This document shows positions 7,583 to 12,718 of a stretch of 13,029 bases of DNA, piece by piece. The notes under the pieces were generated by a model. It saw nothing but the letters and a program-made list of their open reading frames with translations, was not told the origin of the DNA and searched no databases. The DNA is taken from NCBI GenBank assembly GCA_945874505.1, contig CAMCII010000056.1, positions 1 to 13,029 of the forward strand, written 5' to 3'. A program made the translations under genes and the position numbers. This DNA comes from Bordetella parapertussis. GTDB taxonomy: Bacteria; Pseudomonadota; Gammaproteobacteria; Burkholderiales; Burkholderiaceae_B. Every line of letters starts with the position of its first letter. The first letter of the stretch is position 1.

Positions 7583-7640
7583 TTTGCTGGTGCCCGGGGC
7601 CGGAATCGAACCGGCACGCCTTGCGGCGGGGGATTTTGAG
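7583..7640. repeat. Distal att site: duplicated 3' fragment of tRNA-Leu(CAA)
   Basis: 58/58 identical to 12661-12718. Covers the tRNA from the anticodon loop to CCA plus 5 nt. No 5' acceptor or D-arm, so it is not a functional tRNA. Confidence 0.92.
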
Positions 7641-7696
7641 GAAACGGGCACCGCTGCGAACTATTAAAAATGGGGTTCTTAAAGCATAGGGCATTT

Positions 7697-7717
7697 TGTA
7701 CAACGTTTTGTACAACG
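7697..7717 (+). promoter_or_regulatory. Two tandem TGTACAACG repeats (candidate arm-type recombinase-binding sites, tRNA-distal arm)
   Basis: Exact 9-mers at 7697-7705 and 7709-7717, 12 bp apart. Same orientation as the three copies at the other end of the island. Confidence 0.6.
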
Positions 7718-7791
7718 CTGCCAATCAACATAAATTAGCATCTACAGCATTGTATTCCATTGCTTTCCAAGCTGACCAAGTCAAAGTTGTA

Positions 7792-8460
7792 TCAAACCAA
7801 TTCCACAGCCTTGCGTTTCATATCGTCATTTACATCTATGTAGCATTGAACAGAAGACAATGCACGATGCCCACTAAGTCCCATAATCACCCGTACACCT
7901 ACACCTTGTGCTGCAAGATTAGTAATGAATGTGCGACGTGTTGAGTGACTGCTTGCGCCAATCACGCCTGCTCGTTTGTAAAGATAATGGAAGTGCTGCG
8001 TCAGCGTGTTTGCTGTGAAGCCATCACTTGTGGTTTTTTGCGAATAAAACAGCTTGTCAGTTGTCTTGTTGAATTTGGTCACAGCAATATACGCAGTCAA
8101 TTCTTTGCGTAGTCGTTCGCTGACAAAAACTGTACGTGCATGTCGCCCCTTTGTTTGATCTGCACGTAATTGAAATTCGCTGCGTACAAGACGTTCGTTA
8201 TCAATAACATCACAAAGACGTAAGCTTGCAGCTTCGCCTACACGCAGTCCTGCGTAATACATCAACAATAAAACAGCACGATTACGTGCTGCGTGTTTGC
8301 GTGTTGCCACGTAGTCCAATACGCGACGCAACTCAATCGCTGTAAGTGTTTTGGCTTGCTTGCTCATTTTGCGTTTTCTCCCTAACCAAAGCTTGGCTAA
8401 GTCAAAAGCGTAATTTCTTTTGTTTCTTTTCGCGACCTTTTGCGTGTTGCTGTCGAACAT
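7792..8460 (-). CDS. Small single-domain tyrosine recombinase, FimB/FimE-sized (possible DNA invertase or accessory recombinase)
   Basis: Catalytic pattern: R in AGLRVGEAASLRLCDV, H-x-x-R in HSTRRT, then GH and Y in LSGHRALSSVQCYIDV. An alternative start at ATG 8365-8367 (MSKQAKTLTAIEL, GGGAG upstream) would give 191 aa. There is no large N-terminal arm-binding domain. Confidence 0.85.
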   Translation of the reverse strand: MFDSNTQKVAKRNKRNYAFDLAKLWLGRKRKMSKQAKTLTAIELRRVLDYVATRKHAARNRAVLLLMYYAGLRVGEAASLRLCDVIDNERLVRSEFQLRADQTKGRHARTVFVSERLRKELTAYIAVTKFNKTTDKLFYSQKTTSDGFTANTLTQHFHYLYKRAGVIGASSHSTRRTFITNLAAQGVGVRVIMGLSGHRALSSVQCYIDVNDDMKRKAVELV

Positions 8461-8615
8461 TCGTGATTTCTTCCAATAATCAATAACTTAGCGACCCATT
8501 TAGTCGCAAACCAAAGCTTTTACATATTTGCTTTGGTTTTTTATTTATGGAATGAATAGTGATCGTGTGGGATTTAGAACACACAATTAGCTGCGATGTT
8601 TAACAAGCCCTATAC

Positions 8616-8688
8616 GCTACTCGCAGTTCGCTCAGCTACTCGCATATCCATTGCGACTGTTTAAGCGTGTGCAGCTTGTTTTAAGCGT
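8616..8688 (+). repeat. Iteron-like direct repeats in the non-coding region (2x GCTACTCGCA, 2x TTTAAGCGT)
   Basis: GCTACTCGCA at 8616-8625 and 8635-8644, 19 bp apart. TTTAAGCGT at 8660-8668 and 8680-8688, 20 bp apart. CTGTTTAAGC recurs at 8903-8912. Confidence 0.5.
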
Positions 8689-8814
8689 CGTGTGTGCTTG
8701 TGCTGCAATAGCGTTGGCATTTGTCTGCTGCTGTTGCTTGCCCTATCAAGCTACGCCTTGCTGTGGTCGCGAACAACTATGGTTTGGGTGCATACTAAAA
8801 GGTTTGATGGAACG

Positions 8815-8878
8815 GCTGCATGATTTTTTTGCAATACTTCGCTAATTAAAGCTATCGCAGCTTTAATGAACATGCAGC
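8815..8878. other. Nested perfect hairpin (candidate origin or nick-site structure, or transcript end of the Rep-like gene)
   Basis: The outer 8-bp arms gctgcatg (8815-8822) and catgcagc (8871-8878) enclose a perfect 9-bp stem, attaaagct (8845-8853) with agctttaat (8859-8867), and a 5-nt loop atcgc. Confidence 0.5.
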
Positions 8879-10445: not shown

Positions 10446-10643
10446 TCAAAAAAGACAACCTCCAGTAACCCAATATTCTTTACCATCTGTTGCAAGCGAC
10501 ATAACGTTGCATGTTTGAGGGCCTTTTGGTGTGTCCAATGTCACGGCACACATTCCCATTTTGTTGCCCATGCGTAAAAAGTTTACAGAACTTATTGGTA
10601 CCCGTAATTTTTCTGCGATACTTTCACCAAAACCTTTTGATAT
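10446..10643 (-). pseudogene. In-frame 65-codon continuation of the membrane-protein gene beyond its TGA (possible split or pseudogenised C-terminal domain)
   Basis: After TGA (10644-10646) the same frame reads ISKGFGESIAEKLRVPISSVNFLRMGNKMGMCAVTLDTPKGPQTCNVMSLATDGKEYWVTGGCLF*, with no ATG/GTG/TTG before codon 25. Confidence 0.35.
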
Positions 10644-11135
10644 TCAACTTGCTTTGAAACATAATTTTTGAACCACATCAAAGTCCAACACCTCTGCTTT
10701 ATTAGGTTTGGAATTAATAGCGGGAGTTGATACTGTATTGGGTTGAACAAGTGGTGACTTACTGTGTTCCTCTTTGAACAAAATGGAATACGAAAAATAC
10801 AAAAACAATGCGGTAAGTCCTAATACGATTCCTCGTTGTTTGCTACTGGTCTTTGACCAAAACGTCTTTGCCAAGTCTGTTTTCTTTGTACCTTCAGCTG
10901 CGGTCGCCACAGTTTCTTTTCGTATCGCGTTTACCTGTTTTAGTTCATGTACAACGTCTTTAGTTGCAGCTTTGCTAACTGCAAATATCTTCCCAACCAA
11001 TATGCCAGTTTTGTTAATAATGTTATTCAGCGTTTCTTTTGCAGCAGCATTCTTGTCTGCTTTGTGCTCTCCACCACTGGCTTTTGCATCACTTGCAGCA
11101 TCTTTATTTTTATCGTTGTCGTTTGGGCTGGTCAT
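10644..11135 (-). CDS. Single-pass membrane protein with a low-complexity Lys/Asp/Ala-rich N-terminus (island cargo, unknown function)
   Basis: Likely start at ATG 11133-11135 (AGGA about 9 nt upstream). The track start at 11159 is TTG. One hydrophobic helix, GIVLGLTALFLYFSYSILF. No recognisable domain. Confidence 0.65.
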   Translation of the reverse strand: MTSPNDNDKNKDAASDAKASGGEHKADKNAAAKETLNNIINKTGILVGKIFAVSKAATKDVVHELKQVNAIRKETVATAAEGTKKTDLAKTFWSKTSSKQRGIVLGLTALFLYFSYSILFKEEHSKSPLVQPNTVSTPAINSKPNKAEVLDFDVVQKLCFKAS

Positions 11136-11297
11136 GTTGGTTAATCCTTGTTTTGGCAATGATTTAGTATAGGCGACGCTTTATTACTTGTGTTGCCTCA
11201 AGTATGGTACGAGCTTACCGTGCCTCGTTTCCTTTGTTTACCCTTCAGCAACATGTCATTTGTCATCTCGCCACGGAGTGGCTGCACGCAGGGATAA

Positions 11298-12539
11298 TCA
11301 CTCAGCTGCCGTGTTGTCCAGCAGCGCAGCAGACACGCTGCCTTCTCCAGCAAACTTATCAGCCAATTTCAACAAGTCCAAATGACCATAGTGCGTCTGC
11401 AGCATGGCGATGCTGGTGCCCATGTGCTCAGCTAACTGGTAAGCAGTGACATTGCCTTTGGTCAATTCGTGCGTGGCGTAGAAGTGGCGTAGGCTGTACA
11501 GGGTACGGTGCTTGCCTGTGTGTGTATCCACTAACAATCCAGCCCGCTCCATCATGCGTGTAAACATCCTGCCAAACGCTGTAGTTAGGTCAGCGTTGTG
11601 TGTGGCATCAATCACAGGCTTGTCTAACCCCCTCGCCAGCAATTCACGCAAGGTCAGTCTCTTTAGCCGTTCATTGCGATCTTTAATCCGTTCCAAGTAG
11701 CGAGCCACGCGATGGCGTACCTGTATGGTTCGCCATTTTTGCGTTTTGCCTTTGACACGCATAGTTAAGTATTCTTTATTGCCACTTCTGGTCAGCGAGA
11801 TGTCACGCCAACGCATATTGATCATTTCCGTGCCTTGCCTGATACCTGTATTTGCCAGTATCAACACATAGTCACGCAGCAGCAGGCGCATGTCACGCTC
11901 GTGCCCTGCACGCCCATCTTTAATGTAGGCACGCATGGCACGCAGCAGGGCAGGATATTCTCCAATCTGTATGTCTGGACGCCGTTCGCTGCTGGCGCCC
12001 CCCCTGTTCTCCAACTGAGGCACTTGAACAGTGGTTATGTATCCACGTAAGACAGCTTCATCAAAAACCCGTTTCAGCGCAGCGTTGTGAGTATTTTGGG
12101 TACTTGTTGAAGGGGTTTTTTCCATTTCACGAGTACGCCATGTAGCAAAGCGTTGTAGTGCTGCGTAATCCACGCTGTCTATGTTGTGGCTCTTGAAATA
12201 TGGGATGTGATAGTTGTTAAGGGCGTTTTTGTAGCTTTTGTAAGTTGCTTTGCCTTGCCCTGCTGCGATTTCATCATCCATGCGCTTGATGGCAAGATTG
12301 GCGATAGTTTTGAATCGCTTACTGACTGTGGGCAGATTGTTGCGTTCTCTAAACCAAGCGTTTGTGACCAGATCAACAGCTTTGCTCTTGGCTTTGGCTA
12401 AATCTTCTTCTTTTGTGGTGGTTCTCAGCCACTTGCTGCCAACCTTGTAGCGTACTTGCCAGACAGGTGAAGTCTTTCTAATTGACAGCGTTGCTTTGCC
12501 CTCAAGTATGTGAACTGTGTGCTCTACTTTTTGTGGCAT
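11298..12539 (-). CDS. int: Tyrosine-type site-specific integrase (P4-like, tRNA-targeting)
   Basis: Catalytic pattern: R in NTGIRQGTE, H-x-x-R in HSLRHFYATH, then H and Y in EHMGTSIAMLQTHYGH. Adjacent to the intact tRNA. The start is placed at ATG 12537-12539 (GGAG 9 nt upstream). The track ORF extends to 12563. Confidence 0.93.
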   Translation of the reverse strand: MPQKVEHTVHILEGKATLSIRKTSPVWQVRYKVGSKWLRTTTKEEDLAKAKSKAVDLVTNAWFRERNNLPTVSKRFKTIANLAIKRMDDEIAAGQGKATYKSYKNALNNYHIPYFKSHNIDSVDYAALQRFATWRTREMEKTPSTSTQNTHNAALKRVFDEAVLRGYITTVQVPQLENRGGASSERRPDIQIGEYPALLRAMRAYIKDGRAGHERDMRLLLRDYVLILANTGIRQGTEMINMRWRDISLTRSGNKEYLTMRVKGKTQKWRTIQVRHRVARYLERIKDRNERLKRLTLRELLARGLDKPVIDATHNADLTTAFGRMFTRMMERAGLLVDTHTGKHRTLYSLRHFYATHELTKGNVTAYQLAEHMGTSIAMLQTHYGHLDLLKLADKFAGEGSVSAALLDNTAAE

Positions 12540-12604
12540 TGACATGCACTCCAAAAAAAACATAGGCTAAGCTATGTTCTGTATTGTACAGTCAGTGCTG
12601 TTTT

Positions 12605-12646
12605 TGTACAACGAATGTACAACGGCATCAAAAAAACTGTACAACG
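12605..12646 (+). promoter_or_regulatory. Three TGTACAACG repeats (candidate arm-type recombinase-binding sites, integrase-proximal arm)
   Basis: Exact 9-mers at 12605-12613, 12616-12624 and 12638-12646, plus a partial TGTACAgtc at 12585-12593. They lie between the int start and the core repeat. Confidence 0.6.
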
Positions 12647-12660
12647 TGGAGAACCGCATA

Positions 12661-12718
12661 TTTGCTGGTGCCCGGGGCCGGAATCGAACCGGCACGCCTT
12701 GCGGCGGGGGATTTTGAG
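12661..12718. repeat. tRNA-proximal att site (core repeat inside the tRNA-Leu 3' half)
   Basis: 58/58 identical to 7583-7640. Confidence 0.92.

What the first reader, a model, noticed from the sequence alone, without database searches (positions are those of the whole stretch)
7583..12718. Minimal 5.1-kb integrative element in tRNA-Leu(CAA): two tyrosine recombinases plus an HUH protein, with no structural or transfer genes
Seen directly: a 58/58 identical direct repeat (7583-7640 = 12661-12718). It matches the tRNA 3' part from the anticodon loop to CCA plus 5 nt. The intact tRNA is at the integrase end and only a 3' fragment at the far end. The intervening DNA is visibly more A+T-rich than the pqq and dehydrogenase flanks. 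Content: one large integrase, one FimB-sized recombinase, one 178-aa HUH-motif protein, a 446-bp structured non-coding region, and 3-4 ORFs with no domain I can recognise (146 aa, 60 aa, and a membrane protein of about 163 aa plus a 65-codon extension). I find no capsid, terminase, primase-helicase, relaxase/T4CP or AlpA/Xis-like excisionase. The element is smaller than typical P4-like satellites, PICIs or IMEs. Inference: it may be a minimalist integrative replicon or phage satellite that excises by int and replicates by rolling circle. The unassigned ORFs, especially the membrane protein, could be exclusion or anti-phage cargo.
Basis: partly seen in the sequence, partly recalled or inferred. 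Interest (0 to 1): 0.75.

Follow-up and report, generated by a model that had tools for sequence, protein, structure and literature searches.

The report
Minimal tRNA-Leu island with rolling-circle Rep
This is a real 5.1-kb mobile island inserted in a leucine tRNA gene; it is the stripped-down backbone of a widespread family of small islands in freshwater bacteria that I could not find described, and its relatives often carry restriction-modification genes.

Summary
A perfect 58-nt direct repeat (7583-7640 = 12661-12718) brackets a 5,078-bp unit beside an intact tRNA-Leu(CAA). A syntenic relative (88% nt identity over 6.2 kb) has the cytochrome c gene followed directly by the intact tRNA and no island, so it shows the empty site.

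The six genes are not a random remnant. Integrase, 60-aa ORF, DUF6641 protein, 173-aa HUH Rep, a non-coding region and a small tyrosine recombinase recur together in more than 25 loci. These are mostly freshwater Betaproteobacteria. They sit at five different tRNA genes and at guaA, in elements of 5.1-13.7 kb. Larger relatives carry type I or type II restriction-modification, Mrr or AAA cargo.

Rep keeps all three rolling-circle motifs, passes Pfam PF23343, and its model matches Microvirus replication initiators. Next to Rep lies a covarying hairpin. Upstream of the small recombinase lies a lox-like 34-bp palindrome.

The window copy is the smallest and has no cargo. Its membrane-protein gene carries an in-frame TGA. 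There are no phage, conjugation or defence hits, so a satellite lifestyle is unproven. One T4-like phage contig carries the same Rep-plus-hairpin cassette.

Verdict: a real element and a new variant of a known kind. The transfer route is unknown.

The parts
7583..7640 (-). attR: 3' fragment of tRNA-Leu(CAA) (53 nt) plus 5 nt; distal copy of the 58-nt direct repeat
   Evidence: 58/58 identity. In the empty-site relative L027 the same 53 nt belong to the intact tRNA.
7641..7770 (.). Distal arm of attP, with two TGTACAAC repeats (7697-7704, 7709-7716). These are candidate arm-type integrase binding sites.
   Evidence: TGTACAAC occurs 6 times against 0.48 expected, and 5 of the 6 lie just inside the two ends. 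The segment is 92% identical in sister element L025, although the neighbouring genes differ.
7792..8460 (-). Small tyrosine recombinase, catalytic domain only. It is 222 aa from the ATG at 8460 or 191 aa from the ATG at 8367; both starts have a Shine-Dalgarno-like motif. The R, K, HxxR, H and Y residues can be read in the sequence.
   Evidence: Pfam PF00589 E = 8e-29, phrog_216 E = 4e-38, best NCBIfam hits are Xer-like. Conserved in 20 loci. Source gene calls give 191 or 222 aa.
8508..8539 (.). Palindrome of about 32-34 bp (AAACCAAAGC, 12 nt, GCTTTGGTTT). Candidate core recombination site or operator for the small recombinase. A short GCGAC/GTCGC hairpin follows at 8491-8507.
   Evidence: DNA fold z = -5.3. 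A palindrome with the same centre relative to the recombinase start is found in 17 distinct loci; the arms differ by lineage and the centre is asymmetric. 10-16 of 17 mirrored positions pair, against a shuffled mean of 8.8 and a maximum of 12.
8599..8696 (-). Conserved non-coding block b3. It travels with the small recombinase and contains two GTTT(T)AAGCGT direct repeats.
   Evidence: Alignment A3. nhmmer finds it directly upstream of the small recombinase in 20 loci, even where cargo separates it from Rep.
8826..8908 (-). Block b1, directly 3' of the Rep stop codon. Hairpin 1 (8875-8905) has an outer stem AGCA/TGCT, an invariant TTACT bulge, a 3-bp inner stem and a 7-nt loop. Hairpin 2 (8846-8866) is TTAAAGCT/AGCTTTAA. 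Candidate double-strand origin and nick site.
   Evidence: Present after Rep in all 24 loci that have Rep. Hairpin 1 is 97-98% paired in 19 distinct sequences, with compensatory changes at 4 pairs.
8907..9428 (-). HUH rolling-circle replication initiator, 173 aa (the ORF extends to a TTG at 9443). Motif I is LTLTLKQ, motif II HLHMAIG, motif III YITKE.
   Evidence: PF23343 at 32.6 bits, above its cut-off. phrog_3584 'replication initiation protein' E = 4e-4. The motifs are invariant in 36 homologues. AlphaFold model pLDDT 81. Foldseek against BFVD: 73 hits at E <= 1e-3, and the named ones are Microvirus replication initiators.
9583..10023 (+). DUF6641 protein, 146 aa, transcribed divergently from Rep. 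Function unknown; guessed to be a regulator or a replication accessory protein.
   Evidence: PF20346 E = 6e-12, phrog_31551 E = 6e-21. Adjacent to Rep in every island locus. 1,696 clusters at 50% identity, nearly all stand-alone proteins of about 147 aa. Model pLDDT 82 with no PDB fold match.
10117..10298 (+). Conserved 60-aa helical ORF of unknown function. Recombination directionality factor is one guess.
   Evidence: phmmer finds homologues at the same position in 11 related loci. No hit in Pfam, PHROGs, NCBIfam or PADLOC.
10449..11135 (-). Single-pass membrane-protein gene interrupted by an in-frame TGA at 10644-10646 (163 + 65 codons). Probably a pseudogene or a recently inactivated gene.
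   Evidence: tblastn of the 229-aa homologue P0276 gives 86% identity across the stop. Homologues share the N-terminal part and the membrane segment but have different C-terminal domains, and they sit directly after the integrase in related islands.
11298..12539 (-). Tyrosine integrase, 413 aa from the ATG at 12539 (the ORF extends to 12563, 421 aa). It faces away from the tRNA into the element.
   Evidence: phrog_1 integrase E = 3e-29, Phage_int_SAM_5 E = 2e-4, XerA/XerD-like NCBIfam hits. Homologues lie next to a tRNA in L003, L005, L014, L016, L018, L020, L025 and L108.
12596..12660 (.). Integrase-proximal arm of attP, with three TGTACAAC repeats (12605, 12616, 12638).
12661..12750 (-). attL: intact tRNA-Leu(CAA) (12666-12750). 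Its 3' 53 nt plus 5 nt (12661-12718) form the proximal copy of the direct repeat.

Best explanation
The region is a site-specific integrative genomic island. It is the smallest, cargo-free member of a widespread family of 5-14-kb islands found mainly in freshwater Proteobacteria.

**Shown**
- It is inserted at the 3' end of tRNA-Leu(CAA) and rebuilds the tRNA with its own 58-nt att core.
- A syntenic relative has the uninterrupted site.
- The backbone is conserved as a unit across many loci, while the integrase type and target tRNA differ. The backbone is: integrase, 60-aa ORF, DUF6641, HUH Rep with hairpin block b1, blocks b3/b4, small tyrosine recombinase.

**Inferred mechanism**
1. The integrase binds the TGTACAAC arm repeats and the att core, and excises a 5,078-bp circle.
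2. The 173-aa HUH Rep nicks at the conserved hairpin block next to its stop codon and starts rolling-circle replication, using host helicase and polymerase.
3. The small recombinase acts on the 34-bp palindrome in front of its gene. Most likely it resolves replication multimers into monomers, as Cre/loxP and Xer/cer do for plasmids.
4. DUF6641 is transcribed divergently from Rep and probably regulates or assists replication.

Larger relatives use the slots between block b1 and block b3, and between the small recombinase and attR, to carry cargo, often restriction-modification genes.

The route of cell-to-cell transfer is not encoded and stays unknown. Passive transfer by phage particles, vesicles or transformation is the likeliest class.
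For: **Insertion**
- Perfect 58-nt repeat and intact tRNA.
- Empty site in L027: 87.9% nt identity over 6,211 nt of the left flank, then an intact tRNA-Leu(CAA), with no island gene found by tblastn.
- Arm-type repeats cluster at both ends.
- The distal arm is 92% conserved in sister element L025, which sits in the same tRNA.

**Family**
- The core genes are found together in L002-L026 and L107-L121.
- 15 species-level genomes carry it, mostly Limnohabitans, Polynucleobacter and Comamonadaceae.
- Target sites are tRNA-Lys, Leu(caa), Leu(taa), Met and Phe, plus guaA.
- Boundaries set by direct repeats give 7.2, 8.6, 10.6 and 13.7 kb.
- Cargo includes type I RM, MvaI/BcnI RM, Mrr and an AAA protein.

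**Rep**
- Pfam hit above its cut-off, invariant motifs, and a fold match to Microvirus initiators.

**Non-coding elements**
- Block b1 always follows Rep, and blocks b3/b4 always precede the small recombinase, even when cargo separates the two.
- Hairpin 1 shows covariation.
- The palindrome keeps its position while its arms change by lineage.
Against: - No excised circle, attP junction or repaired attB from the same population was seen. An attP-junction pattern found nothing in IMG/VR.
- All related contigs I could resolve are integrated forms.
- No plasmid or phage record encodes this Rep, so an autonomous replicon stage is unproven.
- The nick site is not identified. The b1 hairpins are not thermodynamically unusual on their own (z about -1) and could be an mRNA 3' structure or a terminator.
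- The palindrome could be an operator or a weak bidirectional terminator rather than a recombination site.
- The membrane-protein gene is broken in this copy, so some decay has occurred.
- Sister element L025 has lost Rep and b1, so Rep is not essential for persistence.
Confidence: 0.6

Rival explanations
1. It is a phage satellite. The island is induced by an infecting helper phage, replicates by rolling circle into concatemers, and is packaged into helper capsids without encoding any packaging gene of its own, as described for marine virion-packaged elements and for PICMI.
For: - Small size, an integrase plus a replication module, and no transfer genes.
- Published virion-packaged marine elements range from under 5 kb to 16.8 kb, are packaged as concatemers and lack capsid genes (PMC9618062).
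- A T4-like phage contig (L022) carries the same Rep plus b1 cassette at 82% nt identity to Limnohabitans islands. This shows DNA exchange between these islands and a phage.
- Restriction-modification cargo in relatives fits a phage-interference role.
Against: - No terS, capsid, scaffold-redirecting, AlpA, Stl-like or other helper-sensing gene in any of more than 25 loci.
- Scans of IMG/VR with the Rep and DUF6641 profiles returned no island-like contig. They returned only one phage with Rep and one with DUF6641. Elements without viral hallmark genes are, however, under-represented in that collection.
- No pac or cos site was identified.
Confidence: 0.2
2. It is an integrative mobilizable element. 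The HUH protein acts as a relaxase and the b1 hairpin as oriT, and the island hitches on a co-resident conjugative element.
For: - HUH initiators and relaxases share their chemistry, and Rep-related relaxases mobilise integrated elements in Firmicutes (reviewed in PMC5704250, listed; otherwise my own knowledge).
- A hairpin next to the HUH gene resembles an oriT layout.
Against: - The motif order and type (motif I uTLT, then HUH, then YxxK) and the Pfam and fold matches are those of ssDNA-phage replication initiators, not of MOB relaxases.
- No coupling protein or mating-pair gene is present in any locus.
- Many hosts are genome-streamlined planktonic bacteria such as Polynucleobacter. From my own knowledge, conjugative elements are uncommon in such bacteria.
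Confidence: 0.1
3. It is an immobile fossil: a once-mobile island that has lost its cargo and is decaying in place, with Rep and the recombinases no longer used.
For: - In-frame stop in the membrane-protein gene.
- No cargo.
- Sister element L025 has lost Rep.
- The same insertion appears in a second assembly (L111).
Against: - The 58-nt repeat is still perfect, although the attR copy is under no tRNA selection.
- Both recombinases and Rep keep full-length frames and catalytic motifs.
- The arm repeats are intact at both ends.
- The codons after the stop are still 86% identical to intact homologues, so the inactivation is recent.
- The nearest syntenic relative found lacks the island.
Confidence: 0.1

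Closest known systems
Tycheposons (Prochlorococcus and other marine bacteria; bioRxiv 10.1101/2020.12.28.424599)
   Same: Both integrate at tRNA genes and leave partial-tRNA repeats. Both have an inward-facing tyrosine integrase at one end, a small optional replication module and variable cargo, with no capsid or conjugation genes. Both occur in streamlined planktonic bacteria.
   Different: The tycheposon replication modules described in that paper are primases, helicases and polymerases, not an HUH Rep. No DUF6641 or small second tyrosine recombinase is described there. Whether the integrase belongs to the tycheposon-specific lineage was not tested. The hosts here are freshwater Proteobacteria.
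Virion-encapsidated integrative mobile elements and PICMI (minimalist marine phage satellites; PMC9618062; bioRxiv 10.1101/2023.07.18.549517, listed)
   Same: They fall in the same size class (under 5 kb to about 17 kb). They have an integrase and a replication function, lack capsid genes, and are inferred to replicate by a plasmid-like rolling-circle route.
   Different: Those elements were defined by physical presence in virions or by demonstrated helper dependence. Here neither packaging nor a helper is shown, and the gene families differ.
TLC-phi and RS1 satellites and CTX-phi of Vibrio cholerae (PMC6744903 and PMC4439123, listed; details from my own knowledge)
   Same: They are small integrative elements whose replication depends on a gII-type HUH initiator, and their integration and resolution depend on tyrosine recombinases acting on short palindromic sites.
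   Different: Those elements borrow host XerCD and integrate at dif, and filamentous helper phages package them. This island has its own lambda-type integrase with arm sites at a tRNA gene and its own small recombinase. No pI/Zot or coat gene appears anywhere in the family.
Actinomycete integrative elements of the pSAM2 type (my own knowledge, not checked with the tools)
   Same: They integrate at tRNA genes with their own integrase, and after excision they replicate by rolling circle with their own Rep.
   Different: pSAM2-type elements encode an FtsK-like transfer protein and an excisionase and occur in Actinobacteria. The Rep family is different.
Integrase-only defence islands transduced by jumbo phages (PMC12595487)
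   Same: They are flanked by direct repeats, have a tyrosine integrase and restriction-modification cargo, and carry no genes for autonomous transfer.
   Different: Those islands target tmRNA, are much larger (for example I55), and no Rep, DUF6641 or small-recombinase core is reported in the parts I read.

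Membership tests
Site-specific integrative genomic island at a tRNA gene | Direct repeats formed by duplication of the tRNA 3' end, with the intact tRNA at one end | tested here: met
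   58/58 repeat; tRNA-Leu(CAA) is intact at 12666-12750 and only a fragment is present at 7583-7640.
Site-specific integrative genomic island at a tRNA gene | Tyrosine integrase gene next to the att site | tested here: met
   Integrase at 11298-12539 (phrog_1 E = 3e-29). Catalytic R, K, R, H and Y residues can be read in the sequence.
Site-specific integrative genomic island at a tRNA gene | Uninterrupted target site in a related genome | tested here: met
   L027 is collinear over 6.2 kb at 88% nt identity. The cytochrome c gene is followed by an intact tRNA-Leu(CAA), and no island genes are present.
Site-specific integrative genomic island at a tRNA gene | Excision to a circle with an attP junction | not testable with these tools
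   No reads are available. The attP-junction pattern found nothing in IMG/VR.
HUH rolling-circle replication initiators (Pfam PF23343 REP_ORF2-G2P) | Score above the family's curated cut-off | tested here: met
   32.6 bits against a cut-off of 27.8, E = 1e-7. Most homologues carry a precomputed PF23343 hit.
HUH rolling-circle replication initiators (Pfam PF23343 REP_ORF2-G2P) | Motif I (uTLT), the HUH metal-binding motif and a catalytic Tyr in YxxK, in that order | tested here: met
   LTLTLKQ, HLHxAIG and YxxKE are invariant or nearly so in 36 homologues.
HUH rolling-circle replication initiators (Pfam PF23343 REP_ORF2-G2P) | HUH nuclease fold | tested here: met
   Model pLDDT 81. In BFVD, 73 hits at E <= 1e-3 with probability 1.0 and TM about 0.5, including Microvirus replication initiators. 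Against PDB there are only weak hits to AAV Rep and parvovirus NS1 nuclease domains, E = 0.02-0.08.
HUH rolling-circle replication initiators (Pfam PF23343 REP_ORF2-G2P) | Cognate origin with a nick site | tested here: inconclusive
   A conserved, covarying hairpin block lies next to the gene, but no nick site was identified and no similarity to a known origin was shown.
Phage satellites (P4-like, PICI, PLE, PICMI, virion-packaged marine elements) | Genes for packaging or capsid hijacking, or for sensing a helper phage | tested here: not met
   No such hit in Pfam, PHROGs or NCBIfam for any ORF of the element, nor in the annotated relatives.
Phage satellites (P4-like, PICI, PLE, PICMI, virion-packaged marine elements) | Presence in virus particles or helper-dependent transfer | tested here: inconclusive
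   IMG/VR scans gave no island-like contig. A T4-like phage contig carries Rep plus b1. Virion data cannot be examined here.
Tycheposons | [quoted passage not shown] | tested here: met
   The architecture matches the published definition (parts list).
Tycheposons | Integrase of the tycheposon-specific lineage and the shared hallmark gene profiles | not tested
The replication gene here is an HUH Rep, whereas the paper lists primases, helicases and polymerases.
Inovirus prophage | pI/Zot-type morphogenesis ATPase and coat proteins | tested here: not met
   No such hit in the window or in any related locus.
IS200/IS605-type HUH transposon (considered for the Rep plus b1 cassette) | Y1 transposase family and subterminal hairpins at both ends | tested here: not met
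   The Pfam hit is PF23343, not the Y1 transposase family. The b1 profile matches only 3' of the gene.

The most novel reading that the evidence does not exclude
The conserved core may be a new kind of mobile-element engine. The core is DUF6641, the HUH Rep with its hairpin origin, a cargo slot, the lox-like palindrome and the small recombinase.

In this reading, single-stranded or multimeric DNA made by rolling-circle replication is processed by a dedicated mini-recombinase acting on a foldable palindrome. This would be analogous to XerCD acting on folded CTX-phi DNA, or to integron integrases acting on attC. The family would be a freshwater counterpart of marine phage satellites, tied to T4-like phages with which it exchanges its 650-bp Rep-origin cassette.
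Probability: 0.15. Interest if true: 0.8.

Novelty: new variant of a known kind. Interest (0 to 1): 0.55.

Why it matters
Small islands that encode neither capsids nor conjugation genes are now recognised as major carriers of defence and niche genes in planktonic bacteria. Few of their backbones are understood.

This window shows one such backbone in its barest form, so every remaining part is probably needed for the element's own life cycle. That makes it a compact test system of 5.1 kb and six genes. Three questions could be tested directly with it:
- whether an ssDNA-phage-type Rep can drive replication of an integrative island;
- what DUF6641 does (about 1,700 clusters at 50% identity, no known function);
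- what a catalytic-domain-only tyrosine recombinase with its own 34-bp site contributes.

The family also appears to shuttle restriction-modification systems among abundant lake bacteria such as Limnohabitans and Polynucleobacter.

Tried and rejected
**Searches that found nothing useful**
- Rep by tblastn against GenBank phages and PLSDB plasmids: no match.
- The Rep profile against PDB sequences: only spurious hits.
- Foldseek of Rep against PDB: only weak hits to parvovirus and AAV nuclease domains. The BFVD search was the informative one.
- DUF6641: no PDB fold match. No informative domain fusions among the best 150 of 1,696 representatives; the few fusions look like gene-call chimeras. No phage record, and a single distant plasmid match.
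- PADLOC: no credible defence hit for any ORF.
- Rfam: only the tRNA, plus a sub-threshold microRNA-model hit on a terminator-like hairpin.
- The first genome scan, with a single Rep sequence, failed. The profile scan worked.
- The attP-junction pattern in IMG/VR: nothing.
- Looking up the window's own DUF6641 protein to name the source genome failed.

**Ideas tested and rejected**
- Circular episomes. Recurrent contigs of about 7.4 kb turned out to be integrated copies in tRNA-Met with chromosomal flanks.
- Decayed prophage or inovirus. No structural or Zot-like gene is present in any family member.
- FimB-type invertible switch. No inverted pair of sites brackets a promoter; there is a single palindrome per locus.
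- Integron-like cassette capture at the palindrome. Cargo sits on either side of the recombinase module, not at the palindrome.

**Literature**
No paper in the library contains DUF6641, PF20346 or PF23343.

Full report
**1. The observation**

The window holds one long repeat. It is 58 nt, 100% identical, at 7583-7640 and 12661-12718, with a start-to-start spacing of 5,078. Every other repeat is 25 nt or less and imperfect.

ARAGORN and Rfam find a single tRNA, tRNA-Leu(CAA), at 12666-12750 on the minus strand. The repeat covers this tRNA from the anticodon loop to the encoded CCA, plus five more bases. Only that 3' part is present at 7583-7640.

G+C is 44.7% between the repeats and 50-51% in the pqq/dehydrogenase flank. 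The integrase gene alone is 49%.

**2. Is it an insertion?**

A scan of metagenome contigs with the cytochrome c protein encoded at 6883-7467 returned contig JACCDI010776897.1 (locus L027).
- It is collinear with window 1265-7472 (pqqEDCB, hydrolase, dehydrogenase, cytochrome c) at 87.9% nucleotide identity over 6,211 nt.
- After the cytochrome c gene comes about 220 nt of spacer and then an intact tRNA-Leu(CAA).
- The tRNA and about 65 nt on its 5' side match window 12666-12815 at 90%.
- None of the six island proteins is encoded there.

It comes from a congener, not from the same population.

The octamer TGTACAAC occurs six times in the window against 0.48 expected. Five of the six lie within 70 nt inside the two ends, all in one orientation. 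This is the layout of arm-type integrase sites in lambda-like attP regions (established knowledge).

**3. What the genes are**

- **11298-12563, minus.** A tyrosine integrase (phrog_1, E = 3e-29).
- **7792-8460, minus.** A catalytic-domain-only tyrosine recombinase (PF00589, E = 8e-29). Its best NCBIfam matches are Xer-like, and its invertase-model matches are much weaker.
- **8907-9443, minus.** This ORF passes the Pfam cut-off for PF23343, the replication proteins of ssDNA phages.
  - An alignment of 36 homologues shows invariant LTLTLKQ, EGER, HLHxAIG and YxxKE, the three classical rolling-circle motifs.
  - An AlphaFold model (pLDDT 81) matches 73 viral proteins at E <= 1e-3. The named ones are Microvirus replication initiators.
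  - PDB gave only weak hits to parvovirus Rep nuclease domains.
- **9583-10023, plus.** Pfam DUF6641 and phrog_31551, function unknown. Its model has no PDB neighbour. A full HMMER search finds 1,696 clusters at 50% identity, nearly all stand-alone proteins of about 147 aa.
- **10117-10298, plus.** The 60-aa ORF has no family hit.
- **10449-11135, minus.** The membrane-protein gene has an in-frame TGA at 10644-10646. Full-length homologues of 229 aa align at 86% identity straight through the stop. This copy was therefore inactivated recently, or the stop is a sequencing error.

Nothing resembles a capsid, terminase, primase, relaxase, coupling protein, excisionase or known defence protein.

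**4. It belongs to a family**

Rep has 348 detectable relatives, typically 173-174 aa and about 60% identical. Genomic contexts from 15 species-level genomes and many metagenome contigs show the same arrangement:

tRNA (or guaA) | integrase | optional gene | 60-aa ORF | DUF6641, divergent from Rep | non-coding region | small recombinase | optional cargo | partial tRNA.

- **Hosts.** Mostly Limnohabitans, Polynucleobacter and other Burkholderiales, plus a Francisellaceae MAG.
- **Target sites.** tRNA-Lys(ttt), Leu(caa), Leu(taa), Met, Phe and guaA.
- **Sizes where both repeats are visible.** 7.2 kb (L113-L116), 8.6 kb (L003), 10.6 kb (L025) and 13.7 kb (L020). The window's 5.1 kb is the smallest.
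- **Cargo in relatives.** Type I RM next to the core (L002), an MvaI/BcnI type II RM pair (L113-L116), an Mrr-like nuclease (L025), an AAA protein (L023) and MarR/tautomerase-like genes (L003).
- **Sister element L025.** It sits in the same tRNA-Leu(CAA). Its integrase region is 85% identical to the window's at the nucleotide level, and its terminal arm next to attR is 92% identical. It has 5 kb of cargo exactly where the window has none.

The window is therefore the bare backbone. The 'unassigned ORFs' are backbone genes, not cargo.

**5. The non-coding region**

Aligning the Rep-to-recombinase gap from 11 loci shows conserved blocks separated by a variable A-rich spacer. Profile searches show two linkage groups:
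- Block b1 (window 8826-8908) always follows Rep.
- Blocks b3 and b4 always precede the small recombinase.

This holds even when 1.4-3.5 kb of cargo lies between the two groups. The region therefore holds two separate functional units and a cargo slot.

*Block b1.* It begins two bases after the Rep stop codon.
- Its first hairpin (8875-8905) is 97-98% paired in 19 distinct sequences, with compensatory changes at four pairs. The covariation score is 0.187, against 0.067 in shuffles and 0.08 or less for slid partners.
- An unpaired TTACT is nearly invariant.
- I read this as the best candidate for the Rep nick site or origin. This is inference.
- An mRNA 3' structure is the main alternative, and the fold energy alone is unremarkable.

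*Block b4.* It contains a 32-34-bp palindrome (8508-8539).
- Its fold z-score is -5.3.
- The centre keeps the same distance from the recombinase start in 17 distinct loci. The arms change by lineage (CCAAAGC, TGTAAGG, ACATAAG, TGTAATG, ATATAAGG) and the central 6-12 nt stay asymmetric.
- Two loci have perfect 12+6+12 or 16+2+16 forms.
- This is the geometry of a tyrosine-recombinase core site such as loxP, FRT or dif (established knowledge). An operator or a weak terminator is not excluded.

**6. Mechanism proposed**

*Shown:* insertion at the tRNA, intact recombination architecture, a family-wide core, and an HUH initiator with intact motifs.

*Inferred:*
- The integrase excises a 5,078-bp circle.
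- Rep nicks at b1 and drives rolling-circle replication with host enzymes.
- The small recombinase resolves multimers at the palindrome.
- DUF6641 regulates or assists Rep, by analogy with repressors transcribed divergently from rep genes.
- The 60-aa ORF might be a directionality factor.

The transfer route is not encoded.

**7. A phage link seen in passing**

The only IMG/VR contig with this Rep (L022, 34.7 kb) is a T4-like myovirus. It encodes tail sheath, portal, scaffold, major head, tail tube, UvsY and a helicase.
- Rep plus b1 sits between the major head gene and an endonuclease gene.
- Homology to Limnohabitans islands (82% nt) covers exactly Rep plus b1, about 650 bp, and stops there.
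- In L025 the same 644-bp segment (window 8813-9456) is the one piece that is replaced.

Rep plus b1 thus behaves as a discrete, exchangeable cassette. This shows contact between the islands and a lytic-type phage but does not show satellite behaviour. It could be any of three things:
- a phage counter-measure aimed at the island origin, comparable to the origin-directed nuclease that ICP1 uses against PLE (my own knowledge);
- helper cross-talk;
- a selfish mini-element.

**8. Comparison with known systems**

- **Tycheposons**. The architecture fits the published definition: tRNA att, an inward-facing integrase, a small replication module and cargo. The replication gene family differs, and the integrase lineage was not tested.
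- **Marine virion-packaged elements and PICMI.** The size class and the lack of structural genes are shared, but those elements are defined by packaging, which is not shown here.
- **CTX-phi, RS1 and TLC-phi.** The pairing of a gII-type Rep with tyrosine recombinases acting on short palindromes recalls these, but they use host XerCD at dif and filamentous helpers.
- **pSAM2-type actinomycete elements.** They share tRNA integration plus rolling-circle replication, but they encode a transfer protein.
- **Integrase-only defence islands moved by jumbo phages**. These are a functional parallel for the cargo-bearing relatives.

No paper in the searchable library mentions DUF6641, PF20346 or PF23343. 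I found no description of this backbone. The library is incomplete, so this is absence of evidence only.

**9. Verdict**

The feature is real and the element is a genuine integrative island.
- The satellite idea and the anti-phage-cargo idea for this copy do not have support.
- The main added value is the family context, the two conserved non-coding units, the empty site and the phage-borne Rep cassette.

I rate it a new variant of a known kind, with moderate interest.

Noticed in passing
L022 (IMGVR_UViG_3300044546_001066) 9959-10607: A T4-like myovirus contig carries a 174-aa Rep homologue and hairpin block b1 between its major head gene and an endonuclease gene. It has no DUF6641 and no small recombinase. 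Nucleotide homology to Limnohabitans islands (82%) covers exactly this cassette of about 650 bp.
   Followed up: partly
window 10644-10646: An in-frame TGA splits the membrane-protein gene into 163 + 65 codons. Homologues are intact 229-aa proteins, and the downstream codons are still 86% identical. This points to recent inactivation, a sequencing error or read-through. Homologues share the N-terminal part and the membrane segment but have different C-terminal domains (a small Cys-containing domain, Sel1 repeats and others).
   Followed up: partly
L025 5943-7852, compared with window 8813-9456: In the sister island at the same tRNA-Leu(CAA), precisely Rep plus b1 is replaced by 1.9 kb encoding two ORFs (159 and 231 aa) with no Pfam hit. 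Everything else is collinear. These ORFs may be an alternative replication module.
   Followed up: partly
L018 12142-12224: A second, diverged copy of hairpin block b1 lies 1.5 kb downstream of the first, inside the cargo slot and without a second Rep gene. Two origin-like sites bracketing cargo could allow Rep-mediated mobilisation of the DNA between them. This is the only example seen.
   Followed up: no
window 8367-8460 and the equivalent region in 20 loci: The small recombinase has two plausible starts, each preceded by a Shine-Dalgarno-like motif. This gives forms of 222 aa and 191 aa. The 31-residue extension is basic and loosely conserved (K.VG....RK.T.DI.KL.L.R). Public gene calls are split between the two lengths.
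   Followed up: partly
window 10035-10090: A G+C-rich stem (GGGGGGCG...CGCCCCCC) with a T-run follows the DUF6641 stop codon. It is probably a terminator. It is also the source of a sub-threshold Rfam mir-290 hit (32.9 bits against a cut-off of 51), which is spurious.
   Followed up: no
L112 (Azospirillum sp. B510 plasmid pAB510d, NC_013858.1, 420339-422951): A distant DUF6641 homologue (30% identity) sits beside a site-specific integrase. It is divergent from a 153-aa protein that keeps a YNTKE motif but has HFG in place of HUH. This looks like a degenerate relative of the same core in an alphaproteobacterial megaplasmid.
   Followed up: partly
L014 41-11110: Two islands lie in tandem at one tRNA-Lys(ttt). 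A partial tRNA repeat at 9536-9562 is followed by a second integrase of the same family.
   Followed up: no
L113-L116: Four independent metagenome contigs of 7.4-7.7 kb hold the same 7.2-kb island in tRNA-Met(cat), with a 45-nt direct repeat, GTGTGTAGTA arm repeats at both ends, and an MvaI/BcnI-type restriction enzyme with its methyltransferase as cargo. The assemblies break just outside the island, which suggests that the population is polymorphic at the site.
   Followed up: partly
window 268-775: A ParE-toxin/Phd-antitoxin pair sits next to the pqqEDCB operon. L027 has no match to this pair; its collinearity with the window starts at 1265.
   Followed up: no
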